IMG/VR virus record: IMGVR_UViG_3300017780_004980
Location: 1 to 64,000 of that record
Direction: 5' to 3' (one strand)
Length of the DNA stretch: 64,000 bases
Source: a virus
In this document: positions 11,414-39,981 of the stretch, one piece after another
Position numbering within the stretch: position 1 is the stretch's first letter
Layout: every line of letters starts with the position of its first letter
The notes under the pieces: model-generated
Databases searched by the model: none
Seen by the model: the letters and a program-made list of their open reading frames with translations, nothing else
What the model was told of the DNA's origin: nothing
Position numbers and translations under genes: made by a program

Positions 11414-12670
11414 CTAGACCTCGCCGGAGATCGTCAGGTTCGGGAACATCTCCAGGAACCCGCTGCCCTCCAGAAGGTCGGTGACCAGCCCGCTCTTGTC
11501 CTCGCCGTATTTCTCGGCCAGGTGCGCCAGGTAGTCCTGCGGTTCCGGGAAGACCTTGACCTCCTTGGGGGCCGGGGGCTTCTTCGTCGAGCTGGTCGCC
11601 AGGTATTCGGCGCAGATGTACTCCAGCGCCACGCTCTTGACGTCAGTCTGACCGGCCTTCATCGCCTTCTCCAGCGCGGCTTCGACGGTTTCCAGCTGGT
11701 CGGCGTGCAGCTTGAACTGCATGCTCTTGACCTCGGAAGCCGTTTCGGCCGGCGCCGACCCAACCACGTCCTCGGCGCTGCCGTTGACTTCGGCGGCGAT
11801 GGTCTTGATCAGGGTGTCGGTGTTCATCGACAGAGCCTTGGCGATCCACTCGTCGGCGTTTTCGACGGTCAGGACGTCGACCAGTTCCTTCAGCTTGGTC
11901 CAGCCGACGACCTTGACCTTCTCGTAGGGCACACCGCTGTTCAGCAGTCCCTCGTAAATCTTGATCTGGTACTGGGCCTTGCGGTAGGCCACGCCGAACT
12001 TGGCGCTGATGTAGTCCGGGAAGTTCTTGAACTCGCCGAAGTCGCCAATGTCTTTCAGCTTGGCGAACAGGCCGCCGAGCATGAAGTCCGACAGGCCTTC
12101 CTGTTCCTGAACCCGGAGGATGCGCTCCTCGACGTCCGATTGCTCGGTCATCGCCTCGACTTCCTGCGAGAAGGTCAGCAGCGGGTCAGGTCCGAGGACC
12201 TCGCCGGTCTTGGCACCCATGCTGACCGAGGTGCCGGCGCCGTTCGCCGCCGCCTTCTTCTGCTGGGCCTTGGTCGGCTTGAAGATGACCTTGTTCAGGG
12301 CCTTCTTCTGATCCGGCAGGGACATGGCCTCGAAGCCGTCGACCGGGATGCCGACCGCCGTGTACACCGCCGCGACCTGAGCGGAGGTCAGCTTGTGGAC
12401 TTCGGTCTGCGTGGTCGGGATTTTCGTGGCCTGGGCCTGTTCGACGTCGCCGCCTTCATCGTCGCCGCCAATGTCGGTGTCGGGGTCTTCGAGGACCGCC
12501 GCCTCGGGGGCGACTTCTTCGATGTCGGCTTCGACGAAGCCGTTGTCGTCCCCCGCTTCGGAGCCTTCAGAGGCGTCAGCCTCTTGGTCGAGGGCCTCGT
12601 CGAGCTTGGGATCGGCGGCGGGAGGCGACTTGAGGTTGCCGCCCTTCAGCAGGGCCATGGTGGCGCTCAT
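11414..12670 (-). CDS. putative DNA-binding protein (acidic N-terminus, central HTH resembling DUF3102/ParB-type)
   Basis: GGLFAKLKD..F.DYISAKFGVAYRKAQYQIKIY...VGWTKLKEL; highly biased codons; own promoter 12733-12760. Confidence 0.7.
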   Translation of the reverse strand: MSATMALLKGGNLKSPPAADPKLDEALDQEADASEGSEAGDDNGFVEADIEEVAPEAAVLEDPDTDIGGDDEGGDVEQAQATKIPTTQTEVHKLTSAQVAAVYTAVGIPVDGFEAMSLPDQKKALNKVIFKPTKAQQKKAAANGAGTSVSMGAKTGEVLGPDPLLTFSQEVEAMTEQSDVEERILRVQEQEGLSDFMLGGLFAKLKDIGDFGEFKNFPDYISAKFGVAYRKAQYQIKIYEGLLNSGVPYEKVKVVGWTKLKELVDVLTVENADEWIAKALSMNTDTLIKTIAAEVNGSAEDVVGSAPAETASEVKSMQFKLHADQLETVEAALEKAMKAGQTDVKSVALEYICAEYLATSSTKKPPAPKEVKVFPEPQDYLAHLAEKYGEDKSGLVTDLLEGSGFLEMFPNLTISGEV

Positions 12671-12732
12671 TCTGGAATTCTCCGGGTGTTCAGGGCGCAC
12701 CCTCCTGGTGAGCCTGATGGTTTGTTACGACT

Positions 12733-30371: not shown

Positions 30372-30399
30372 ACGGTAGCTAGTTGGCCGGCGGGGTCAA
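30372..30399 (-). promoter_or_regulatory. sigma70-type promoter
   Basis: TTGACC-N16-TACCGT. Confidence 0.75.
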
Positions 30400-30822
30400 T
30401 GGAGAAGCCGGCGGGGGCTTCAGGGGATCACCCAGCTTCGGCTTCTTGGTCCCGAACGGGTCGAACTTCCCGTACCAGGGCTCCGGCATCAGGGTGTTGA
30501 TGATCTGCCGGTTCCGCTGGTCGCAGACGCTCATGATGTGCAGGGCGTCGGCCGTGTTGCCGTTGGCCTTGTGCAGATTGGCCGTCTGGCCGTCCAGCTT
30601 CACCCCGAGCTCCCCCGCGTCGGCGTGCGGGGTCAATTGCGAGACACCCTTCACCGGCACCCGGAGGTCCGGCGGGACGAAGTCACTGCAATTGATCATC
30701 TCCGCTACAATCTGGGGTCTCGGGGTATTTACACAGCCCGCGATTGATAGCGTCGACAAGGCCAGGATCGAGAGGAGCACGAGCGCCGGGCGCCTGCTGG
30801 ATGCGATCTGCGTTGCGTTCAT
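30379..30822 (-). CDS. o-spanin (Rz1-like lipoprotein)
   Basis: lipobox LSIAGC, Pro-rich, overlaps the 3' end of the i-spanin gene. Confidence 0.8.
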   Translation of the reverse strand: MNATQIASSRRPALVLLSILALSTLSIAGCVNTPRPQIVAEMINCSDFVPPDLRVPVKGVSQLTPHADAGELGVKLDGQTANLHKANGNTADALHIMSVCDQRNRQIINTLMPEPWYGKFDPFGTKKPKLGDPLKPPPASPLTPPAN

Positions 30823-31099
30823 GGATCACCACTGTTTCCCGGTCCCGGCTGGCGCCGGCCTGTACGATTGCGAGGACGTCCTGGGCAGTCAGGGCCTCGC
30901 CCTGGGCCTGGGCCGTATCAGCCTTGCCCTGGACGATCTCGACAGCCTGCTTCTCGATGGTCGCCTTCTGGCCGAGGCCGAAGAAGTGCAGGACGTTGCC
31001 GCCCCACGACATCAGCGTGCTCCAGAAGACGAGGATCACGACGATGAAGACCACCGCCCCGATGATCTTCAACCCCCACTTGGCGAGGAACGCCTCCAT
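30683..31099 (-). CDS. i-spanin (Rz-like)
   Basis: N-terminal TM, coiled coil, C-terminal Cys; downstream of endolysin. Confidence 0.8.
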   Translation of the reverse strand: MEAFLAKWGLKIIGAVVFIVVILVFWSTLMSWGGNVLHFFGLGQKATIEKQAVEIVQGKADTAQAQGEALTAQDVLAIVQAGASRDRETVVIHERNADRIQQAPGARAPLDPGLVDAINRGLCKYPETPDCSGDDQLQ

Positions 31100-31549
31100 C
31101 TAGGCTTTCTTGCTCCGCAGCGGGGTGAAGATCGCATTCTCGGCAGACCATCCCATATTGAGGCGGCCTTGGATGGCGAAGTACGTCACCGGACTTATTT
31201 CCGCCCATTCGGCCAACGTCTTAGTTTCCCCGTTTATCGTAATCCATTTAGAGGACCGGCGATTTCGCGCCTGGGTCTGCTGCGTGGACCACTTGCAGTT
31301 CTTGGGCTCATAGTGCCCGTCATTGTCCTTGCGGTCTATGGTCAGAGTGTCAGCGTACCCGGTCTTCAAAGCCCAGGCTCGGAAAGTCTCGAACACCAAC
31401 CACTCGTCACAGACCTTGATGCCTCTTGCCGCGTATTTCTCGTACTCATATCCGACTGTGGCGGAGCATCTTTTAAGCATGCCCCGCCAGATGTTGTGGA
31501 GGCGGGTTCCAGTTTGCCCGTGTCGGGGCCGGCGCTTGATCTCAGACAT
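31100..31549 (-). CDS. HNH homing endonuclease
   Basis: HG..TRL.NIW.GM..RC; TIDRKDNDGHYEPKNCKWST..QARNRR; lower GC. Confidence 0.9.
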   Translation of the reverse strand: MSEIKRRPRHGQTGTRLHNIWRGMLKRCSATVGYEYEKYAARGIKVCDEWLVFETFRAWALKTGYADTLTIDRKDNDGHYEPKNCKWSTQQTQARNRRSSKWITINGETKTLAEWAEISPVTYFAIQGRLNMGWSAENAIFTPLRSKKA

Positions 31550-31597
31550 AAAGACCTTTTAGCGCCGCCCTTTCATCAAAGCAATAGTGAATTTACT

Positions 31598-32083
31598 CTA
31601 GCAAAGCTGATAATGGGGCCCGTCGAGGAAGTCCGCGCCGGCGTGCCGGACCTTGTAGGCCTCCAGGTCGATGCGAAGCCCGGCGCAGGTCGGAGCCAGC
31701 TGGGTGATCTTGCGGTCCCAGATGCCGCCCCAGATCAACGGCACGCCAATGGCGATGGACGCGGCGCGCATGGCGAGGACGATGGGGAAGATGCCGGCGT
31801 CGGACGGCCCGGGCATATCCCAGACCCATTGCGGGCGACCGTCAATGTAGGGCACCAGGTCGACGGCGTGGCTGAAGCCGTCCGCCTGTGCCCGGTGCTT
31901 GGAGTTCATGGTCTTCGACTTGCCCTTGCGGACGAGGAGCGTCTGCTCCGCCAGGGTCCGCAGGCCGTCCATGACGACGAAGTCCTGCTGCGTATTGGCG
32001 ATGGCGTGGTTAACGCAGCTGACCAGGCTCGGGTGGACGCCCTTCAGTTCAGCGAGGCTGCCCGCCCCCAGTCGATAGACCAT
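31598..32083 (-). CDS. endolysin, peptidase M15 (L-Ala-D-Glu peptidase-like)
   Basis: L.GVHP.L, GLRTLAEQ, SKH, HAVDL, WGG.W, DGPHYQL; AAGGAGG RBS. Confidence 0.92.
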   Translation of the reverse strand: MVYRLGAGSLAELKGVHPSLVSCVNHAIANTQQDFVVMDGLRTLAEQTLLVRKGKSKTMNSKHRAQADGFSHAVDLVPYIDGRPQWVWDMPGPSDAGIFPIVLAMRAASIAIGVPLIWGGIWDRKITQLAPTCAGLRIDLEAYKVRHAGADFLDGPHYQLC

Positions 32084-32558
32084 TATCGCCTCCTTCGGCT
32101 TGTGCGTCGGGGCTCTCTCCTGAAGCCCCCGCATCTGAAACCGCACTCTGCTCCGAAATCTGCTCGGTTGCAACCACTTGCAATTCGGTGGTCTTGGTCG
32201 TTTTCGTGGTGGTCTGCGTGGTCTCCGCCTCGGCGTCCACCTCCCCGCTGATCCCGTCCTTGCCGGCGGAGAACTTCAGCTTCTCAAGCCGGTTGCGCTG
32301 GAACCATTGGCCGCCGAAGCCCACCAGCATGGCATAGATTACAGCGATGACTCCGAGCAGGCGGATGCGCTCGATCTCGGTGGGCTGACCCCATTGCGTG
32401 AACCAGCCCGCCAGGATGCAGATCAGGAAGACCGAGACGGCGGTGTTCACCGGCGTGAACAGGAGGGCGAGGACGTCGCGTCCCGCCGAAGCCCAGTCCC
32501 GGATATAGGCCGGGAGGCCGATCATGAATTCGCAGAACCTGGTCCACCACCCACCCAT
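32049..32558 (-). CDS. holin-like membrane protein
   Basis: two or three hydrophobic helices and a hydrophilic tail, immediately upstream of endolysin. Confidence 0.65.
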   Translation of the reverse strand: MGGWWTRFCEFMIGLPAYIRDWASAGRDVLALLFTPVNTAVSVFLICILAGWFTQWGQPTEIERIRLLGVIAVIYAMLVGFGGQWFQRNRLEKLKFSAGKDGISGEVDAEAETTQTTTKTTKTTELQVVATEQISEQSAVSDAGASGESPDAQAEGGDNGLSTGGGQPR

Positions 32559-32582
32559 AGGCGCCCCCTGTGTTGCCTGGCG

Positions 32583-33260
32583 TCAGGCCGATACGGAGAT
32601 ACTACCCGACCAGCCAAACAGCTTTTCGTTTACCACCATAGGCCTGGCCTTGGCCTGGACTTTTATGAAACCCCCATCGGCTTTGCACAGCCGGTAAGAG
32701 CAAGAGAACAGCCGGCGTTCGTCAACAGCGGAGCGCCACTCATGGCGGACCCGCTCGACGTCGTCGGGGTGCAGGATGTTCACCCACCCCCATCCCTGGA
32801 TGTCCGTGACCTGGACCCCGACGAACGTAGCCAGAGACGGGGACGCCCAGGTGTACTGTCCGTGCTCGTCGGTTTCGTAGATCAAGACTGCTTCAGCCAA
32901 GGCCGCGAATATGTGGTCCTGGCGGGAGGCCCACCGCTCCTGCCGTGCTTCTATCCGGGTGATGGCGTCCCTCATCGAGCCACCACCATTGGGGCGGACT
33001 TCAGTGAGGATCGCGGCGAGATTGGCTTCGAGCACGTCAAACTTGGTCTTGACGAATTCTTCGGCCCGCGCGCCGGAGGTGAAGGGTTTCAGCATCGCAG
33101 CTACCACAGCATCTCTCCAGCCTCCCAGGTTGGCCCACACGCCCTTGCCAAACAGCAAAGACCCCAGTGCGGCTAGGGTTCCGACCGTGGCGACCAAGGT
33201 CCCGATATCGGTTTTGACCCATTTGGCCACATGCTCAAACAGCTCCACGAGACCCCCCAT
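32583..33260 (-). CDS. membrane-anchored PAS-domain protein in lysis cassette
   Basis: N-terminal TM, PNGGGSMRD coiled coil, PAS motifs IYETDEHGQYTWAS, GWGWVNILHPDD, YRL...GW.G. Confidence 0.85.
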   Translation of the reverse strand: MGGLVELFEHVAKWVKTDIGTLVATVGTLAALGSLLFGKGVWANLGGWRDAVVAAMLKPFTSGARAEEFVKTKFDVLEANLAAILTEVRPNGGGSMRDAITRIEARQERWASRQDHIFAALAEAVLIYETDEHGQYTWASPSLATFVGVQVTDIQGWGWVNILHPDDVERVRHEWRSAVDERRLFSCSYRLCKADGGFIKVQAKARPMVVNEKLFGWSGSISVSA

Positions 33261-33265
33261 ACGCA

Positions 33266-33281
33266 TTGCAAGTGGTTGCAA
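33266..33281. promoter_or_regulatory. TTGCAA-N4-TTGCAA site at start of lysis cassette
   Basis: exact copy immediately upstream of the PAS gene. Confidence 0.75.
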
Positions 33282-33400
33282 CTAAACTGGGGGCTACCAC
33301 AGCGTGACCACGCCCGCGATACCCCTACCTACCACACTTGGCGAGATCGCCCCTAAAGTCCCAAATAATCTTGGGGATTACTTTCCTTCGTGCGGAGGCG

Positions 33401-33826
33401 TCAGACGACCTCCACCATGCCGGATAGCGTGATGTACGGGAACAGGGTGAGGACCACCCCAAGGACATCCCCGGCCGTGTCTGTCGAGGTGTCCAGGCTT
33501 TGCAGGCCCCCCGTACTGGTATGCGTCCGGGCGCCGCCTGATCCCTCGCTGTCGATAGTCACCACGGTGCCCGAAGGCACGTCAAACTCAAGGTCTACGC
33601 CGGCGGTAACCGTCGCAGGGATCACCTCGCCAAACGAGGGCCGGGCCGTCAGCGCGGGCGAGGCGACGTTTACATACTGCACTGAGGCATTAGCAAGCTG
33701 GCTGGTCAGGGCCAGGGCCGCGTGCCCCCCAGGCGTGTTGTCGGTCACCAGGTCCGACCCACCAATGATCATCCCGACGATCTCTCCTGTCGTGGAGTTG
33801 TATATCACGCTGGTCCCGGCGGTCAT
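33401..33826 (-). CDS. small tail tip-associated protein
   Basis: follows J with ATGA overlap; VIYN..TGEI motif. Confidence 0.7.
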   Translation of the reverse strand: MTAGTSVIYNSTTGEIVGMIIGGSDLVTDNTPGGHAALALTSQLANASVQYVNVASPALTARPSFGEVIPATVTAGVDLEFDVPSGTVVTIDSEGSGGARTHTSTGGLQSLDTSTDTAGDVLGVVLTLFPYITLSGMVEVV

Positions 33827-36800
33827 GTGGCCCTCTTAATTTCGCTGATCGACAGAAGACGGTTAGTGATCGTCACCGTGTTTCCGCTCGTGTTGATCAG
33901 GTAGACCCGGAACGTATGGCTACCAGCAGACAGGCCGGTCACCAACCACTTGAACACTTTCGGCATTTTGACGACCCCGCTACCCGGGGCCCGGACAACA
34001 ATACTGTCGTACACCGAGCCTACAGGGTTTCCCCCAGACGCCGTTATCGTGTTGTCGATGGTCAGGTAGTAGCCGAAATTGTCGTTACCGATGATTTCGT
34101 CGAGGATGTACGCCTCGACCTCCAGCAGGTCTCCCGTGCATACCACCACCAAGCTCATGAGCAGGTTTGCGAACGCCCCGGAATTCACCTGGGTGATCGT
34201 GCTGGTGTTGTACGAGGCGCCGACGGAGTGGATCGCCTTGGTGGCCACCTGCTCGGTTTGCAACAGGCTGGTCGTGGCGTTGATCGAGCCGGAGAAGGCC
34301 GAGACATTCCCCGATGTGTCGACAGCCTTGAACCAGTAGTACCGCTGCACGGCATTTCCCAAGCCACCCCGGGCGTAAGCTCCGGGCGCCGATGCCGCTC
34401 CCTGCACCGTGGCGATCTTGGTGGCCGAACCACTGGAGTTTGACGTGTGCTCCCAGATTTCGATCTGGGCGACATCCGCGTCCGCCGGACAGGTCCAGGT
34501 CAGCATGATCTGGCCGATCATCCCGGTCGCCGCACCGGCCGTAGGGGCGGACGGAGCCGTGGTATCCTTCGCTGACGTGTGGCTGCCTGTCGCCGATGAC
34601 CAGGCGGATTTGTTGCCAAGGCTATCGTAGGCCCGGATGCGGGCGGTGAAACCGACGTTACCCTTGACAAGCCACTCGGCCCTGTTGGTCGAGGTCGTCA
34701 GCTGGGTGATCGTGCTGCCGCCTTCGGTCAGCTCGACATTGTAGCCGGCGAGGTCACTTTCGACGTTGGCCGTCCAGGCGGCCACCAGGACCACCCGCTG
34801 CTTTCCATCGGTATCCAGGGTGACGGAGGAGGACAGCGCCAGGCCGGAAGGAACCGCCGGCGGCGTGGTGTCAATGTCCGAGGTCGAAACGGTCGTGGTC
34901 GTGGCGCTGACCACCGTCGTGAAGGCGCTGGCGTTACCGGAGAAGTCCACCGCCTTGAACCAGTAGTAGTACAGGGTCGAGTTGGCCCGGCCGGTGCGGC
35001 TGTAGGTCTGGCCGGCGGCCGAGGTCGCCTGCACCGAAGCGATCTTCGTGGCCGTGCCCGAGTCGTTGGCCGTGTTCTCGTAAATGTCGACGTGGTCAAG
35101 GTCCGCCGCCGTGGGGTTGACCCACGACAGGCTGACAGCCTGGAAGCCGGCGGCTGCGGCTGGCGACGTCGGGGCGCTGGGGGCCGTAGTGTCCGCCGTG
35201 GAGGTCTGGGTCACCGGGGTCGTGTACGCCGAGCGGTTGCCCAGCTTGTCCACGGCCAGCACCTTCACCGCATAGGAGACATTGCCCTTGACCGGGAAGA
35301 TATCGCTCACGGCGGTGCCAATGGCCCGCACGACGTACGCTCCGCCGTTCTCGGAGACGGCGATCTCATAGTGGTCCAGGTCGCTGTCGGCGACGCCCGT
35401 GAAGCTGGCGGTCATCTTGACCACCTGGGTACCGTCAGTGTCCAGCGTCAGCGCCGAGGACAGACCCAGCCCGGTCGGTACCGCCGGCGCCGTCGTGTCC
35501 AGGTCTCCGCCGACCACCCCGACCGTCGTGCCGCTGGCCACGGACGTGAACGCCGAGGCGTTGCCGGACGTATCTACGGCCTTCAGCCAGTAGTAGCGGA
35601 GCTGCCCCGTGGCGAGACCCGAACGGGTCCAGCTGCCGCCCGCCAAGGGCTTGGCGGTGATCGTGGCCACCAGGGACGCCGAACCACTGGAGTTGGACGT
35701 GTGTTCGTAGACCTCCACGAAGGCCAGGTCGGTCGCCGCCGGGTTGACCCAGGCGAGGGCCAGGTTCTGCAAGCTGGCGGTGACGGCAAAGCTGCTGGGC
35801 GCGGACGGCGCCGTCGTGTCCTTCGCCGAGGTATGCGTGCCGGTCGCCGAGCTCCAGGCGCTCTTGTTGTTGAACGTATCATACGAGCGAACACGGGCCG
35901 TGAAGCCGACGTTCCCCTTGACCTGCCATTCGTAGCGGTTGGTGGCTGCGTTGAAGATCGTGACGTCCGAGCCTTCGGTCAGCTCGATCTCGTAGCCCTT
36001 CAGGTCCGTCTCGACGTTCGCGGTCCAGGTCGCGGACAGCTTCACGCGCTGGGTGCCGTCAGTGTCGACGGTCAGCACCGAAGACAGGGCCAGGTCGGCG
36101 GGGACGCCAGGCGGGGTGGTGTCTACCTCGTTCGTCTGGATCACCAGCGGGGTCGCGGTCACCGACGCCGAGAAGGCCGACTTGTTGCCGCTCTTGTCCA
36201 CCGACTTGAAGAAGAAGTACCGGGCGACGCCGTTGGTCAGGTTCCCCCGCACGAACGACATATTGGCCGAGGGCGCCCCGCCGACGGTCGTGACCAGAGT
36301 GGCGCCTACCGACGTGTTGGTGCTGTTCTCGTAGACCTCGACGACATGGAAGTCGGCAGCTACCGGATTGGTCCAGGTCAGGGTCACCTGCGAGAAGCCG
36401 GCCGTAGCCGACAACGAGGTGGGGGTAGACGGAGCCGTCGTGTCAGCCGCCGTGGTGTGGGTCACCGCCGTGCAGAGCGCCGAGCGGTTGTTGACCCGGT
36501 CGAAGGCCCGGAGCTGGATGTAGTAGAGCTTGCCCGGCTTGGCCAGGAACTCGTCGTGGTTCGTCGACGTGATGTTGACGTGACCCAGGCCCGTGCTGTC
36601 GCCGTGCTCGAAGTAAATGACGTCGTAGCCGGCCAGGTCCGCGTCGACGTTGGCGGTCCAGTCCACGACCATCTTGACCACCAGGGCGCCGTCGACGTTG
36701 CTGGCGATGGACGACGTGACCGTGGGCGTCGCCGGGACCGCCGGCGGCGTGGTCTCCATGTCCGCGACGGCGACGGACGGCGTGGTCAGCGTCTCCTCGT

Positions 36801-39800
36801 CCGTGGGATCGCCGTAGCCGAATTCGTCGTAGTGCCGGAACCGGTAGTAATAGGTCGTGCCCGGGTCCAGCGCGAGCGTGACGTTCTCGCGGCCGATGGC
36901 CCACTGATGGCTGAGGTCCGTCAGGACGCCAGGCGAGGTGCCGGCGTAAACAATCACCCCCCGGTAGTCGGGGTCCACGATCTCGTCGAAAGTGAACGTC
37001 ACCCCGTAGGCCGTAACGTCCACCTCCGAAGGCTCGTAGGCCGGCGGCGGCGGGTTGGCGATGGTGACCGTGGTCTCGGTGCTGGCGACGTCGTTCTTGT
37101 CGATCAGCGCCACGCTGATCTTGTACTCCCGCACGCCGGCGCTGACGAGAAGCAGGTCGTCAATCGGGATGGTCAGGCGGGGCGTGTGCGTGGTGTAGGT
37201 CTTCAAGATCGACAGGGTGTCGGTGTCGCGCAAGCGGACCCGGAACTCCTTGAAATACGGGTCCACCCCGTCGGTCGGCAGCGTCCCGTCCGGCGCGTAG
37301 ATGGGCTTGGCCAACCATTGCAGGAAGACGTTCCGGCCCGACCACTCAAGGCCCCCGCCCTGGATTTCGACGTCGGTGATCAGCGTCTTGCCCGAGGCGG
37401 TACCGGCCGTCAGGTCGATGCGGCGCAGCTTGGGCCGCGACTTGTAGCCCTTCAAGCTGACAGCCCGGACCCAGACGGTGACGTACTCCATCTTCGGGTT
37501 CGGCAGCGTCACCTCGGTCATCTTCTGCATGGGCAGGACGATGATGTTGTCCTCCCCGTACTGGACCGAGACGATGTACCCGTCGAGGTAGGGGTCGGGG
37601 CTGGCCTCCCAGTCCACGTAGAGGAAGCCCTGCGAGGTCGTGCCTTGGGTTCGCGCGGTGTAATAGCGGAGCGACATGGTCGCCACCGGCTCCACCACCT
37701 CGGTGCCAGGCAGATCGGAGAACGCCCGGGTGACTTCCGGGATTTTGTTCTCGATCAGGGCGAACTTCTCAGGCGCGTGCTGGGTCCCCAGGACCTTGTA
37801 CTGACCCTTCTCCTCGTCGTCCGCGATGGACATGATCCGGAAGCTGCGGGGCTCCAGGACGTCCGACGAGACGCCGAACATGGCATTGACGATGGGCATG
37901 TCGTCGCCGTCGAGCGGGGTCACCAGGGTGGCCGTGATGTAGTCCCCGGTTCCCGGGTTGACCAGTTCGCGCTCGACCATCTGGTTGCCGGCGGTGATCG
38001 TGGTCAGGTAGTAGGTCCGCGCACCGTCGAAGGACAGCGGCCGGTCGAACTTCACCTCGCTCGTGGAGACCTCACGCAGACGGCCGGCCCATTCCGCCTG
38101 GGTCATCATCGGGTCGTAGATATCGACGATGCTGCCCGGCAGGATATCGGCCTCGCCCATGCCGATGCGGAACTGGACGGTGTCGGTCTCCAGGTATTCA
38201 GTGTGCAGGGCGAAGCGGGCCAGCCGCAGGGCCTGGGCCTTGCTCGTGCAGCCGTACGCCGTGATCGACAGGACGTTGTAGCCGTACCGGAGGATGCCCT
38301 CCTTATGCTCCACCAGGAGGTCGTCGGCGATGTAGCCCAGGTCCGGGTTGGTCCAGGTCACCGTACAGGCGGTGTGCCGGGCCCGCAGGGCCGTGCCGCT
38401 GTAGTTGAAGACCCCCTCGATGACGTTGGCCGGGGAGAACACCTTGGTGGCCGGCTTAGGGGCGTCCTGGATGAAGGTCATCTGGCCGGCGGCCCAGACG
38501 GCGCTCGTCCGCATCATCCCGCAGATCGCGGTGATGGCGTTGTAGGCCGACATACGCTGGTTGACGACCGTGTTGAACGTGAACATCGGCTCGACGCCGG
38601 CGAACTCGATGTCGTCCGACCCCATCGTGGTGATGGCGTGGCAGCAGCGGAAGAACTTGTCGGCGTAGGTCCCGCCATAGACCGCGAAGGTAGCGCCCAG
38701 GACGTCGCCGGCGGCGTCCATGTCCGTGGCTCGGGTCATAGCCAGGTCTTGGCCGTTGTAGACCCAGATGCCGTTCTCGGCTTTGTCCGTCTGCCCGATC
38801 AGACCAACCCGGACCCCCGCGTCCATCTTCCAGCCGTCGATGTATTCCGGGGCGTCGTTGACGTCGATGTTGACGTCGCTGACCAGGGTCACCCGCTCCT
38901 TGCGGACCTCGACCACGTCGGGATCGAAGCCTACCCCCGTGCCGTCGGACACCAGCCGGTCGTTGTACCGGCCGATGTTGTACAGGTCCCATTTGCTCAC
39001 CCGCGCGTCCGGCAGCACCTCGCCGATGCCGAAGCGGGTGTTGGTCAGCAGGTCCCACAGCACCCAGGCCGGATTGTTGCAGTAGGCCAGCTTGAACGTG
39101 CCGTCCCAGATACCCTCGTAGGTGCGCTCGATGGGATCGTAGTTCGACGGGACGTTGATGATCCGCCCGTAAATCTCGTAGCCCCGGCTGGGGAACGAGT
39201 TGCCGAAGAACTCGGCGTCGAACTGGCAGCCGAACAGGGCCGTGTCCGGGTAGATGTAGCGATGGTCGACGATCTCGGTGTACGAGGTCCAGAAGAACCG
39301 CGACTGCACATTGGCGCTGTCGTCGTCCGGCGAGACCCGACGCACCCGCACGTCCCAGGGGCCGGTCCCGTCGAGCGGGATGCGGTACTGCTGCTGGAAC
39401 TGGGACGTGGTCTTGCCCCGGATCGGCTCCGCCACCTTCTGCACCCAGGCCGAGCCCGGATTGTTGGCGTTCGACCGGACCTCAATCGAAATCTCGACCT
39501 TGTATCCGGTCAACTCACCGGTGTCGGCCACGGCCTGGGTCAGGCCGGACAAGGTCAGCAGGACCCGCACGGCGTTGGCGTTGTCGTTGTTGATCCGGCG
39601 GACAAGGGCGCCCGAGTAACTGTCACCCAGGTGCTGGACCTCGACCCCTACACCGAAGGGCGTGGTCGTGGCCTCGAAGCCCTCGATCACATCCTGATCA
39701 GGCAGGCCGAGGCGCCATTTGATAGTCGCCCCACCGAAGTTGTAGGTCCGGTCCGCGTTCTGGAACGGCGTGTCATTCAGGTAGACCGACCGAAGGCCGT

Positions 39801-39981
39801 TCACCAGCCCCCTGATCGGACCCTCACTGACGACGTCCAGCACCTTGGCGATGGACTTCGACTGGAGGGTGTTCGGGTACTCGTACGGCTCCTGGCCGCC
39901 GTTGCCCCCGGACTTACCCCCGGAGCCCATACGCTCGCCCTGCGCCAGCAGGGGATCGCGCACTTTGATCAGGGCCGCCAT
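33823..39981 (-). CDS. tail tip / central fibre protein (lambda J-like) with FN3 repeats
   Basis: SEGPIRGLV, W.G.FK.AY.NNPAW, QA.RLAR..L.TE..E; eight DTT(A/P)P FN3-like repeats. Confidence 0.93.
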   Translation of the reverse strand: MAALIKVRDPLLAQGERMGSGGKSGGNGGQEPYEYPNTLQSKSIAKVLDVVSEGPIRGLVNGLRSVYLNDTPFQNADRTYNFGGATIKWRLGLPDQDVIEGFEATTTPFGVGVEVQHLGDSYSGALVRRINNDNANAVRVLLTLSGLTQAVADTGELTGYKVEISIEVRSNANNPGSAWVQKVAEPIRGKTTSQFQQQYRIPLDGTGPWDVRVRRVSPDDDSANVQSRFFWTSYTEIVDHRYIYPDTALFGCQFDAEFFGNSFPSRGYEIYGRIINVPSNYDPIERTYEGIWDGTFKLAYCNNPAWVLWDLLTNTRFGIGEVLPDARVSKWDLYNIGRYNDRLVSDGTGVGFDPDVVEVRKERVTLVSDVNIDVNDAPEYIDGWKMDAGVRVGLIGQTDKAENGIWVYNGQDLAMTRATDMDAAGDVLGATFAVYGGTYADKFFRCCHAITTMGSDDIEFAGVEPMFTFNTVVNQRMSAYNAITAICGMMRTSAVWAAGQMTFIQDAPKPATKVFSPANVIEGVFNYSGTALRARHTACTVTWTNPDLGYIADDLLVEHKEGILRYGYNVLSITAYGCTSKAQALRLARFALHTEYLETDTVQFRIGMGEADILPGSIVDIYDPMMTQAEWAGRLREVSTSEVKFDRPLSFDGARTYYLTTITAGNQMVERELVNPGTGDYITATLVTPLDGDDMPIVNAMFGVSSDVLEPRSFRIMSIADDEEKGQYKVLGTQHAPEKFALIENKIPEVTRAFSDLPGTEVVEPVATMSLRYYTARTQGTTSQGFLYVDWEASPDPYLDGYIVSVQYGEDNIIVLPMQKMTEVTLPNPKMEYVTVWVRAVSLKGYKSRPKLRRIDLTAGTASGKTLITDVEIQGGGLEWSGRNVFLQWLAKPIYAPDGTLPTDGVDPYFKEFRVRLRDTDTLSILKTYTTHTPRLTIPIDDLLLVSAGVREYKISVALIDKNDVASTETTVTIANPPPPAYEPSEVDVTAYGVTFTFDEIVDPDYRGVIVYAGTSPGVLTDLSHQWAIGRENVTLALDPGTTYYYRFRHYDEFGYGDPTDEETLTTPSVAVADMETTPPAVPATPTVTSSIASNVDGALVVKMVVDWTANVDADLAGYDVIYFEHGDSTGLGHVNITSTNHDEFLAKPGKLYYIQLRAFDRVNNRSALCTAVTHTTAADTTAPSTPTSLSATAGFSQVTLTWTNPVAADFHVVEVYENSTNTSVGATLVTTVGGAPSANMSFVRGNLTNGVARYFFFKSVDKSGNKSAFSASVTATPLVIQTNEVDTTPPGVPADLALSSVLTVDTDGTQRVKLSATWTANVETDLKGYEIELTEGSDVTIFNAATNRYEWQVKGNVGFTARVRSYDTFNNKSAWSSATGTHTSAKDTTAPSAPSSFAVTASLQNLALAWVNPAATDLAFVEVYEHTSNSSGSASLVATITAKPLAGGSWTRSGLATGQLRYYWLKAVDTSGNASAFTSVASGTTVGVVGGDLDTTAPAVPTGLGLSSALTLDTDGTQVVKMTASFTGVADSDLDHYEIAVSENGGAYVVRAIGTAVSDIFPVKGNVSYAVKVLAVDKLGNRSAYTTPVTQTSTADTTAPSAPTSPAAAAGFQAVSLSWVNPTAADLDHVDIYENTANDSGTATKIASVQATSAAGQTYSRTGRANSTLYYYWFKAVDFSGNASAFTTVVSATTTTVSTSDIDTTPPAVPSGLALSSSVTLDTDGKQRVVLVAAWTANVESDLAGYNVELTEGGSTITQLTTSTNRAEWLVKGNVGFTARIRAYDSLGNKSAWSSATGSHTSAKDTTAPSAPTAGAATGMIGQIMLTWTCPADADVAQIEIWEHTSNSSGSATKIATVQGAASAPGAYARGGLGNAVQRYYWFKAVDTSGNVSAFSGSINATTSLLQTEQVATKAIHSVGASYNTSTITQVNSGAFANLLMSLVVVCTGDLLEVEAYILDEIIGNDNFGYYLTIDNTITASGGNPVGSVYDSIVVRAPGSGVVKMPKVFKWLVTGLSAGSHTFRVYLINTSGNTVTITNRLLSISEIKRAT
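34270..36760 (-). repeat. four tandem A-B pairs of fibronectin-III-like domains (about 630 nt period)
   Basis: TT(A/P)P starts near 36757, 36443, 36124, 35820, 35499, 35193, 34872, 34566. Confidence 0.8.

What the first reader, a model, noticed from the sequence alone, without database searches (positions are those of the whole stretch)
32583..33281. Membrane-anchored PAS-domain protein heading the lysis cassette: possible signal-responsive lysis control
Seen: a TM helix, a PNGGGSMRD coiled-coil segment and a complete PAS domain (IYETDEHG..., GWGWVNILHPDD, YRL...) with no output domain. It is first in the order PAS, holin-like, endolysin, (HNH), spanins, with a TTGCAA operator directly upstream. 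Established knowledge: PAS domains are ligand, redox or light sensors or interaction modules, and antiholins are encoded beside holins. Inference: a sensor-type antiholin or holin partner that times lysis to a cytoplasmic cue. I do not know of this being characterised.
Basis: partly seen in the sequence, partly recalled or inferred. Interest (0 to 1): 0.8.

Follow-up and report, generated by a model that had tools for sequence, protein, structure and literature searches.

The report
PAS-tipped single-pass phage lysis regulator
A freshwater phage encodes, just ahead of its holin-like, endolysin and spanin genes, a single-pass membrane protein from a large phage family usually found beside lysis genes, here carrying a cytoplasmic PAS sensor-type domain, which suggests (but does not show) that host-cell bursting could be tied to an intracellular signal.

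Summary
The gene (CDS 32586-33248, minus strand, 221 aa from GTG) encodes an N-terminal TM helix, a conserved ELRPNGGSSMRDAINRIE-type helix-break-helix, and a C-terminal PAS_3 domain (E 2.9e-13; pLDDT above 94) with nothing after it. It heads the series 2-TM holin-like, M15-type endolysin, HNH, i-spanin, o-spanin.

The N-terminal module belongs to a large phage family (phrog_9869; 4216 clusters at 50% identity), mostly 70-140 aa. The family is predicted N-out/C-in and often lies beside endolysins and small membrane proteins. About one in ten of the best-scoring relatives carries the same PAS domain, and one adds a receiver domain.

Profile comparison (84%, E 7.6e-6) and shared PHROG hits link the module to LysF1b/LysA2b. 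These are single-TM mycobacteriophage lysis regulators shown in 2026 to work with a 2-TM partner. In related cassettes, the slot just upstream of homologs of the 2-TM gene holds other single-TM coiled-coil proteins.

Best reading (0.55): a LysF1b-like lysis regulator with a cytoplasmic PAS input. "Antiholin" is not supported, and sensing is untested. Five of 14 PAS-bearing viral clusters lie outside lysis cassettes. No paper in the held library describes the PAS fusion. I class it as a new variant of a known kind.

The parts
33266..33281 (-). 16-bp motif TTGCAACCACTTGCAA, just 5' of the gene's GTG start. It is a genome-wide repeated site, a possible regulator-binding site.
   Evidence: 18 copies of TTGCAA-N4-TTGCAA in the window against 0 in 100 shuffles. 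In the early region the motif abuts TTGACC -35 boxes. No promoter-like pair follows it here.
32586..33248 (-). CDS of the TM + PNGG-motif + PAS protein (221 aa from GTG 33248; stop at 32583-32585; the longest ORF starts at TTG 33281).
   Evidence: (P0001). Single copy in the 97.8-kb phage genome.
33150..33206 (-). N-terminal transmembrane helix (residues about 15-33).
   Evidence: Hydropathy window 1.89. The family-wide positive-inside count is 10 K+R before and 108 after the helix, across 32 clusters, which indicates N-out/C-in. In the window protein itself the count is 2 against 2.
32949..33002 (-). Family hallmark motif EVRPNGGGSMRDAITRIE (residues 83-100). It forms a helix-break-helix.
   Evidence: N87, G89, S91 and D94 are invariant in 17 PAS-bearing members and 17 mostly short members. 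phrog_9869 match, E 3.8e-6. The model shows helices 60-84 and 90-116 with a break at 85-89.
32586..32897 (-). C-terminal PAS domain (residues about 118-221), predicted cytoplasmic, with no domain after it.
   Evidence: Pfam PAS_3, E 2.9e-13. pLDDT 94-98. Foldseek hits to ARNT PAS-B and Aer PAS. BFVD full-length look-alikes named 'PAS domain [uncultured Caudovirales phage]'.
32052..32558 (-). 2-TM holin-like protein (169 aa), likely N-in/C-in, with a long acidic, Thr-rich tail. It starts 24 nt after the PAS gene's stop codon.
   Evidence: No Pfam or PHROG hit. 16 homologs of about 115 aa, one from a Caulobacter MAG. In related loci its homologs lie directly upstream of an endolysin gene (L106, L107, L112, L113) or up to two genes from one (L110, L114); these enzymes were assigned by eye. 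The L002 gene after its PAS homolog belongs to the same family (hhalign 95.9%).
32168..32183 (+). Second copy of the 16-bp motif, inside the 2-TM gene and upstream of the endolysin start, in the opposite orientation.
31601..32083 (-). Endolysin (M15-type peptidase), soluble, with no SAR or signal segment at its N-terminus.
   Evidence: phrog_465, E 1e-37. Weak Peptidase_M15_4 hit. The N-terminus contains charged residues.
31100..31549 (-). HNH endonuclease inserted between the endolysin and the spanins.
   Evidence: phrog_3377, E 3.9e-50.
30683..31099 (-). i-spanin (Rz-like).
   Evidence: phrog_214, E 0.0024. N-terminal TM.
30379..30822 (-). o-spanin candidate (lipoprotein, lipobox LSIAGC), overlapping the i-spanin gene.
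   Evidence: Sequence. No family hit.

Best explanation
The gene encodes a single-pass inner-membrane protein with a short N-terminus outside and the rest in the cytoplasm. It fills the 'single-TM lysis regulator' slot of this phage's lysis cassette.

Its N-terminal module (TM helix, linker helices and the RPNGGxSxRD helix-break-helix) belongs to a large phage family. That family is probably a sister of the LysF1b/LysA2b regulators of mycobacteriophages. Those regulators are needed for efficient and correctly timed lysis and work genetically with a 2-TM holin-like partner.

By analogy (inferred), the window protein acts in the membrane with the 2-TM protein encoded 24 nt downstream. Together they would set when the membrane is permeabilised, so that the soluble M15-type endolysin reaches the wall and the spanins finish the job.

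The PAS domain hangs on the cytoplasmic end of the last helix, in the way PAS domains connect to signalling helices in sensor proteins. It most likely changes the regulator's oligomeric state or conformation in response to a cytoplasmic input. That input could be a small ligand, the redox or energy state, or a partner protein. This step is inferred and unshown.

Shown: domain architecture, family membership, predicted topology, synteny and recurrence of the fusion. Inferred: the lysis function itself, the interaction with the 2-TM protein, and any sensing.
For: Architecture:
- PAS_3, E 2.9e-13.
- phrog_9869 on the N-terminal part.
- AlphaFold2 pLDDT 82 overall and above 94 in the PAS domain.
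- Foldseek PAS hits.

Family size and the fusion:
- A profile of the module finds 4216 representative clusters at E <= 1e-3, mostly 70-140 aa.
- 15 of the 150 best carry the same PAS domain.
- 14 of 32 viral-contig clusters do so too.
- P0057 adds a Response_reg domain, E 2.5e-17.

Topology: K+R count is 10 before and 108 after the TM helix, and 31 of 32 clusters have more after it.

Lysis linkage of the family (tool-verified neighbours within 3 genes):
- Window: endolysin, 1e-37.
- L002: endolysin, 7e-57.
- L003: endolysin, 1e-52.
- L023: endolysin, 2e-22.
- L052: endolysin, 7e-60.
- L044: holin 7e-12 and endolysin 3e-22.
- L030: VanY, 1.7e-20.
- L010: Rz-like spanin, 6e-4.
- Prophage loci L089, L093, L095: a glycoside-hydrolase-like endolysin with a peptidoglycan-binding domain (L089) and Amidase_2 endolysins (L093 also with a peptidoglycan-binding domain).
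- Isolates: Thermobifida phage P1312 gp40 lies next to an amidase, and Streptomyces phage TurkishDelight has endolysin, holin, then the family member.
- Small TM-protein genes make up 30 of 125 genes within 2 positions against 19 of 422 at 4 or more positions away (odds ratio 6.7, p 1.3e-9).

Link to characterised regulators:
- D29 gp30 (LysA2b) matches phrog_404 at 2.8e-25.
- Family members L030, L038, L089 and L092 hit both phrog_9869 and phrog_404.
- hhalign of the module profile against nine LysF1b/LysA2b homologs gives Prob 84%, E 7.6e-6, aligning the TM helix and MRDAINRI with LRDDLDRL.
- Same-architecture controls score 0.5-2.6%.

Slot argument:
- In loci with homologs of the 2-TM gene, the gene just upstream encodes another single-TM coiled-coil protein (L107, L113, L114) or an XhlA-like protein (L110).
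- In the window and in L002 (42% identical PAS protein), that slot holds the PAS protein.

Function of the relatives: PMC13056207 and bioRxiv 10.64898/2026.08.27.747656.
Against: - No experiment exists on any member of phrog_9869.
- Direct comparison of the window's module with the LysF1b profile is not significant (Prob 1%, E 0.056). The link rests on profiles and bridging members.
- The window's linker is only 28% charged, against 50% or more in LysF1b/LysA2b.
- Five of the 14 PAS-bearing viral clusters lie in non-lysis contexts. L006 lies between terminase and portal. L025 is beside the major head gene. L015 follows an RNA-ligase-like gene. L005 and L008 lie among nucleotide-metabolism genes, assigned by eye.
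- All 11 viral loci with homologs of the 2-TM gene lack the family, so the 2-TM family does not need it.
- Only G130, W155 and G215 are nearly invariant in the PAS domain. No known cofactor-binding residue is conserved.
- My gene caller and TM counter are crude.
Confidence: 0.55

Rival explanations
1. It is a lysis regulator, but the PAS domain senses nothing. It would serve only as a dimerisation or scaffolding module that replaces the charged coiled-coil tail of the short family members, and lysis timing would be constitutive.
For: - PAS domains commonly act as dimerisation modules (established knowledge).
- The top structural matches are PAS-B domains of ARNT/HIF heterodimers.
- Short family members end in a coiled-coil where the PAS domain sits.
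- No conserved cofactor-binding residue is present.
Against: - One relative adds a receiver domain after the PAS domain, which points to real signalling in at least part of the subfamily.
- The PAS domain is kept at 23-42% identity across at least 29 clusters. This fits either reading.
Confidence: 0.2
2. It is not a lysis protein. It would be a membrane-anchored signalling or host-takeover 'moron' placed at the tail/lysis junction, for example interfering with host PAS or two-component signalling or with superinfection. The family's nearness to lysis genes would only reflect a common insertion spot for small membrane-protein genes.
For: - Five of 14 PAS-bearing clusters are far from recognisable lysis genes.
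- Cassettes with the same 2-TM family work without it.
- A 119-nt gap with a repeated regulatory motif separates it from the tail genes.
- A PAS-REC relative exists.
Against: - The gene lies 24 nt upstream of the 2-TM gene, with no terminator between them.
- The same adjacency is kept in L002 at 42% identity.
- The slot holds other single-TM lysis-type proteins in relatives.
- There is a profile link to proven lysis regulators.
- Endolysin neighbours recur across unrelated phages.
Confidence: 0.2
3. It is a releasin-like factor (as Mu gp25) that frees a membrane-tethered endolysin, or a tail or virion component as the PHROG label 'minor tail protein' suggests.
For: - It has the same N-out/C-in single-TM layout as Mu gp25.
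- In L017 the next gene is weakly DUF2730-like (6.8e-4).
- The phrog_404 label.
Against: - There is no likeness to DUF2730 (no Pfam hit; hhalign 0.5%).
- The window's endolysin has no SAR or signal segment, so there is nothing to release.
- The 'minor tail' label of phrog_404 is positional, and its member D29 gp30 behaves as a lysis regulator (bioRxiv 10.64898/2026.08.27.747656).
Confidence: 0.05

Closest known systems
LysF1b (Girr gp35, NBJ gp33) and LysA2b (D29 gp30), single-TM lysis regulators of mycobacteriophages (PMC13056207; bioRxiv 10.64898/2026.08.27.747656)
   Same: - Single N-terminal TM helix with predicted N-out/C-in topology and a helical cytoplasmic part.
- Encoded next to a 2-TM holin-like gene and endolysin, usually after the tail genes.
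- Profile-profile match at 84%, E 7.6e-6, with the motif in register.
- Bridging members hit both PHROG families.
   Different: - The window protein carries a C-terminal PAS domain.
- Its linker is 28% charged rather than 50% or more.
- The host is probably Gram-negative, as spanins are present.
- The gene order is 1-TM before 2-TM.
- The motif is PNGGxSxRD rather than NTHDTNLRD.
- Direct single-sequence similarity is not significant.
- No functional data exist.
Mu gp25 releasin (DUF2730, PMC9239132)
   Same: A membrane-tethered cytoplasmic protein with N-out/C-in topology, encoded in a lysis region.
   Different: - No sequence relation.
- Mu gp25 serves a SAR endolysin in a holin-less phage. 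This phage has a soluble endolysin and a 2-TM holin-like gene.
XhlA of Bacillus prophage PBSX (Pfam PF10779), a membrane-associated partner of the holin XhlB (function recalled from memory)
   Same: - A small coiled-coil plus one TM helix, encoded beside a holin and endolysin.
- An XhlA-like protein fills the same slot in locus L110 (2.6e-4).
   Different: - Opposite order of coiled-coil and TM helix.
- No significant match to the window protein.
Aer and other membrane-anchored PAS sensors
   Same: A cytoplasmic PAS domain tethered to the inner membrane. The PAS fold matches Aer PAS at 21-22% identity.
   Different: - No HAMP or kinase-control output.
- FAD binding is untested, and the sequence match to Aer is not significant (E 1).
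- Here the 'output' would be the membrane helix itself.
Classical antiholins (lambda S107, T4 RI and RIII, P1 LydB) (from memory)
   Same: Both are thought to tune holin triggering.
   Different: - No homology.
- Different topologies, or dual-start isoforms of the holin.
- The nearest characterised relatives of this protein promote lysis rather than delay it.

Membership tests
PAS fold (Pfam PAS_3, PF08447) | Profile match above the curated cut-off | tested here: met
   50.3 bits against a 25.6-bit cut-off, E 2.9e-13. Confirmed by a six-frame search of the genome, 52.2 bits.
PAS fold (Pfam PAS_3, PF08447) | Five-stranded antiparallel sheet with flanking helices | tested here: met
   The model has strands 122-126, 132-135, 181-188, 194-206 and 209-219, with helices between them, at pLDDT 94-98. 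Foldseek TM-score is about 0.8 to ARNT PAS-B and Aer PAS.
PAS fold (Pfam PAS_3, PF08447) | Bound cofactor or ligand (not required for membership, but needed for a sensor claim) | not testable with these tools
   Only G130, W155 and G215 are nearly invariant. There is no conserved Cys or His typical of LOV or heme PAS domains.
phrog_9869 / TM-RPNGGxSxRD family | Profile match and hallmark motif | tested here: met
   phrog_9869, E 3.8e-6. The motif residues N87, G89, S91 and D94 are invariant. A family profile finds the gene at 3.4e-25.
phrog_9869 / TM-RPNGGxSxRD family | Single N-terminal TM helix, N-out/C-in | tested here: met
   The family count is 10 K+R before and 108 after the helix. The window protein alone is neutral (2 against 2), so its topology rests on homology.
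LysF1b/LysA2b single-TM lysis regulators | Sequence homology to Girr gp35 or D29 gp30 | tested here: inconclusive
   Profile-profile comparison gives Prob 84%, E 7.6e-6. Bridging members hit phrog_404 and phrog_9869. The window module alone against the profile gives Prob 1%.
LysF1b/LysA2b single-TM lysis regulators | Single N-terminal TM helix, N-out/C-in | tested here: met
   compare the description.
LysF1b/LysA2b single-TM lysis regulators | Cytoplasmic tail with about 50% or more charged residues | tested here: not met
   The window linker is 28% charged and short family members are 32-46%. D29 gp30 is 50% and Che8 gp35 is 53%.
LysF1b/LysA2b single-TM lysis regulators | Encoded beside a 2-TM holin-like gene in the lysis cassette | tested here: met
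   The 2-TM gene starts 24 nt downstream and the endolysin follows. L002 has the same arrangement.
LysF1b/LysA2b single-TM lysis regulators | Deletion gives a lysis defect | not testable with these tools
   Needs the phage or a reconstituted cassette.
Mu gp25 releasin (DUF2730) | DUF2730 profile match | tested here: not met
   No Pfam hit at E <= 0.1. hhalign against Mu gp25 gives Prob 0.5%.
Mu gp25 releasin (DUF2730) | Paired with a SAR endolysin needing release (as in Mu; other DUF2730 types pair with soluble endolysins, PMC9239132) | tested here: not met
   The endolysin N-terminus carries charged residues and has no hydrophobic segment.
Antiholin | Inhibits its cognate holin until triggering | not testable with these tools
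   No homology to known antiholins was seen. The nearest characterised relatives promote lysis.

The most novel reading that the evidence does not exclude
Phages of several host phyla carry a one-protein 'sense and lyse' device. A cytoplasmic PAS domain would read a host signal such as energy or redox state, a metabolite, or a host phosphorelay (through the PAS-REC relative). It would pass that signal along a signalling helix to a single-TM lysis regulator, advancing or delaying holin triggering. Lysis timing would then depend on host physiology rather than running on a fixed clock.
Probability: 0.25. Interest if true: 0.85.

Novelty: new variant of a known kind. Interest (0 to 1): 0.66.

Why it matters
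Lysis timing sets phage burst size and fitness. The known controls are holin accumulation, collapse of the proton-motive force, dual-start antiholins and T4 lysis inhibition. None of them, as far as I know, uses a standard signalling domain.

A PAS domain, and in one relative a PAS plus receiver domain, fused to a lysis-cassette membrane protein would give a direct and testable route by which host physiology could set the time of lysis.

The work also does three other things:
- It ties an unannotated family of more than 4000 clusters (phrog_9869) to the recently characterised LysF1b/LysA2b regulators.
- It extends that class beyond actinophages to phages with spanins.
- It flags misleading database labels: 'minor tail protein' for phrog_404 and 'sensory protein kinase CreC' for Thermobifida phage P1312 gp40.

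Tried and rejected
- tblastn of the protein and megablast of the region against 50,697 phage records found nothing.
- Mu releasin membership was rejected.
- The module profile found nothing in the PDB sequences.
- Protein atlas hits were below 0.8 and serve only as leads. One of the three best clusters is named 'putative Holin'.
- The window's neighbours have no BLASTP relatives among genes of the 80 family loci.
- A six-frame Amidase_2 search over 32 records found only one hit. Most records are fragments, so I dropped the plan of measuring distances to endolysins family by family.
- P0057 was not found in viral contigs.
- The alignment A3 was too diverse for a genome scan.
- A weak PAS_3-like hit at 11642-11791 was not confirmed by Pfam on the whole ORF.
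- Reads: only contigs were available. One metatranscriptome contig covers 31771-32102, the 5' part of the endolysin gene, and none covers the PAS gene. This says nothing about its expression.
- The promoter/terminator scan found no sigma70-like promoter in 30.0-34.5 kb and no more terminators than in shuffles.
Full report
**What is there**

The window is part of a complete 97.8-kb phage genome with direct terminal repeats, about 63% G+C, from a freshwater metagenome. On the minus strand the genes run as follows:
- a 2052-aa tail fibre gene (33823-39981);
- a 141-aa gene of unknown function;
- a 119-nt gap;
- the gene in question;
- 24 nt later, a 169-aa 2-TM protein;
- an M15-type endolysin (phrog_465, E 1e-37);
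- an HNH endonuclease;
- an Rz-like i-spanin with an overlapping lipoprotein o-spanin.

The longest ORF starts at TTG 33281. The database gene call (P0001, 221 aa) starts at GTG 33248, behind a GGGGGG run. The first 16 bases of the long ORF are a repeated regulatory-looking motif, so 33248 is the better start.

**The protein**

Residues about 15-33 form a hydrophobic helix. Residues 83-100 read EVRPNGGGSMRDAITRIE. Residues about 118-221 are a PAS domain, supported by:
- PAS_3, E 2.9e-13;
- pLDDT 94-98;
- Foldseek hits to ARNT PAS-B and Aer PAS.

The model shows four long helices before the PAS domain, with a break exactly at PNGGG. Nothing follows the PAS domain. A search among longer proteins found only cellular multi-PAS kinases and sigma54 activators, matched through the PAS part. 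The gene is single-copy in the phage.

**The family**

Only three full-length relatives turned up in a word-indexed search of 5.8 billion proteins. A scan of viral contigs with the motif gave 80 loci in 32 clusters at 70% identity:
- 14 clusters have the TM helix, motif and PAS domain.
- 18 clusters are short proteins of 65-147 aa, with the TM helix, the motif and a short coiled coil.

A profile of the N-terminal module finds 4216 representative clusters at E <= 1e-3 among 1.84 billion proteins. Most are 70-140 aa. Fifteen of the best 150 carry the same PAS domain (offline HMM). One of these, P0057, continues into a receiver domain (E 2.5e-17).

PHROGs files the module under phrog_9869 (unknown function). 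Some members also hit phrog_15431 ('holin') and phrog_404 ('minor tail protein'). BFVD holds two full-length look-alikes, named only 'PAS domain [uncultured Caudovirales phage]'.

**Topology**

Across the 32 clusters, the 15 residues before the TM helix hold 10 Lys+Arg and the 15 after hold 108. In 31 of 32 clusters there are more after the helix. The family is therefore predicted N-out/C-in, with the motif and the PAS domain in the cytoplasm. The window protein alone is neutral (2 against 2).

**Is the family linked to lysis?**

Tool-verified neighbours within three genes:

| Locus | Neighbour | E-value |
|---|---|---|
| Window | endolysin | 1e-37 |
| L002 | endolysin | 7e-57 |
| L003 | endolysin | 1e-52 |
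| L023 | endolysin | 2e-22 |
| L052 | endolysin | 7e-60 |
| L044 | holin; endolysin | 7e-12; 3e-22 |
| L030 | VanY | 1.7e-20 |
| L010 | Rz-like spanin, followed by a lipoprotein | 6e-4 |

Further points:
- Amidase_2 and NlpC/P60 hits below the Pfam cut-offs stand next to L014 and L073; the L047 and L045 neighbours are BLASTP relatives of these.
- Three actinobacterial prophage loci (L089, L093, L095) have endolysin-type genes directly downstream: a glycoside-hydrolase-like protein with a peptidoglycan-binding domain in L089, and Amidase_2 proteins in L093 and L095.
- In cultured phages, Thermobifida phage P1312 gp40 precedes an amidase. Streptomyces phage TurkishDelight has endolysin, holin, then the family member.
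- With a crude TM counter, small TM-protein genes make up 30 of 125 genes within two positions of the family gene. They make up 19 of 422 genes at four or more positions away in the same loci (odds ratio 6.7, p 1.3e-9).

The linkage is not universal. Among the 14 PAS-bearing clusters:
- Four lie in verified lysis cassettes (window, L002, L003, L010).
- Three more are followed by small membrane proteins (L009, L017), or have a small membrane-protein gene two genes downstream (L007).
- Five lie elsewhere. L006 is between terminase and portal. L025 follows the major head gene. L015 follows an RNA-ligase-like gene. L005 and L008 are among nucleotide-metabolism genes, assigned by eye.

**Link to characterised proteins**

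Two 2026 papers describe LysF1b (Girr gp35) and LysA2b (D29 gp30). These are single-TM, N-out/C-in proteins. Their deletion gives small plaques, altered timing and reduced burst. They work genetically with a 2-TM partner, and suppressor mutations map to that partner (PMC13056207; bioRxiv 10.64898/2026.08.27.747656).

The evidence for a link:
- D29 gp30 matches phrog_404 at 2.8e-25.
- Four members of the window's family hit both phrog_404 and phrog_9869.
- A profile of nine LysF1b/LysA2b homologs (A4) aligns with the module profile (A2) at Prob 84%, E 7.6e-6. The alignment covers the TM helix, the linker and the motif.
- Controls with the same architecture score far lower. Mu gp25 scores 0.5% and 2.4%, and the window's i-spanin scores 2.6%.
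- The window's module alone against A4 is not significant, although it aligns in the same register.

I take homology as probable, not proven. The charged-tail feature of LysF1b is not met (28% against 50% or more).

**The slot argument**

The 2-TM protein has 16 homologs of about 115 aa, one from a Caulobacter MAG. Eleven viral loci carry such homologs. None has the family or a PAS gene within 4 kb.

In those loci, however, the gene just upstream of the 2-TM gene encodes one of the following:
- another single-TM coiled-coil protein (84 aa in L107 and L113; 100 aa in L114);
- a weakly XhlA-like protein (L110, 2.6e-4).

In several of these loci a GH19-type or M15-type endolysin and, in some, spanin-like genes come after it, by eye. 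L002 encodes a PAS protein 42% identical to the window's. There the same cassette appears with the PAS protein in that slot:
- The gene after it belongs to the 2-TM family (hhalign 95.9%).
- The 4-TM gene before it matches the 4-TM gene of L107 (3e-21).

So the PAS protein sits where these cassettes keep a single-TM accessory protein. The 2-TM family does not depend on this particular partner.

**The 16-bp motif**

TTGCAA-N4-TTGCAA occurs 18 times in the window against none expected. In the early region it abuts TTGACC -35 boxes. One copy lies at 33266-33281, 17 nt before the GTG start, with no promoter-like pair after it. Another lies inside the 2-TM gene in the other orientation. What the site does at this position is open.

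**Interpretation**

The best-supported reading is a LysF1b-like single-TM lysis regulator that has gained a cytoplasmic PAS domain.
- 'Antiholin' is not supported, because the characterised relatives promote lysis.
- Sensing is plausible. The PAS domain is joined through a long helix, the fusion recurs, and a PAS-REC relative exists. It remains untested, and the PAS domain may only dimerise.
- A non-lysis membrane signalling role cannot be excluded, given the five PAS-bearing clusters outside lysis cassettes.

Literature searches found no description of a PAS domain in a phage lysis protein.

**Limits**

- Gene calls in the loci come from my own simple caller, and the TM counts from a hydropathy window.
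- Most viral records are fragments.

Noticed in passing
window, 18 sites (896, 1658, 2888, 4669, 4844, 5701, 9386, 12745, 14378, 20342, 25584, 32168, 33266, 43614, 51387, 55699, 57333, 63965): A 16-bp motif, TTGCAA-N4-TTGCAA (mostly TTGCAACCACTTGCAA on the minus strand), occurs 18 times against 0 expected. In the early region it lies directly upstream of TTGACC -35 boxes. This looks like a binding site for a phage regulator.
   Followed up: partly
P0057 (metagenome protein, 362 aa): A family member with the TM helix, a PNSG motif and PAS_3, plus a C-terminal response-regulator receiver domain (E 2.5e-17). Its genomic context could not be fetched.
   Followed up: partly
L004:10467-12629: The gene after a PAS-bearing family member is an S8 subtilase interrupted by an intein with a LAGLIDADG homing endonuclease.
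   Followed up: no
L110:1216-1407 and L017:3619-3909: The accessory slot next to holin-like genes holds a weakly XhlA-like protein in L110 (2.6e-4). In L017, the gene after a PAS-bearing member is weakly DUF2730 (releasin)-like (6.8e-4). Both are below the Pfam cut-offs.
   Followed up: partly
L083 (Thermobifida phage P1312 gp40) and phrog_404: Database labels look wrong. P1312 gp40, a member of this family, is deposited as 'sensory protein kinase CreC'. phrog_404 is labelled 'minor tail protein', although its member D29 gp30 is reported to be a lysis regulator.
   Followed up: partly
window 31100-31549 (-): An HNH endonuclease gene (phrog_3377, E 3.9e-50) lies between the endolysin and the spanin genes, splitting the lysis cassette.
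   Followed up: no
window 30400-33400: Near-identical pieces of this region occur in freshwater metagenomes from three other studies. One contig from a metatranscriptome library covers 31771-32102, the 5' part of the endolysin gene. Contigs cannot show expression level.
   Followed up: partly
window 11642-11791 (-), in the 428-aa ORF 11414-12700: A six-frame search gave a PAS_3-like hit below the cut-off (E 0.0045) in the putative regulator gene whose promoter carries the 16-bp motif. A Pfam scan of the whole ORF found nothing.
   Followed up: yes
L107, L113 (3247-3735), L110 (704-1219), L002 (9435-9920): A conserved protein of 162-171 aa, in which a crude hydropathy count finds 2 to 4 TM segments, with a PxPWS..A..P.QD motif precedes the single-TM slot in several Caulobacter-type lysis cassettes (L002 against L107, BLASTP 3e-21). 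Its function is unknown, and the window phage lacks it.
   Followed up: partly
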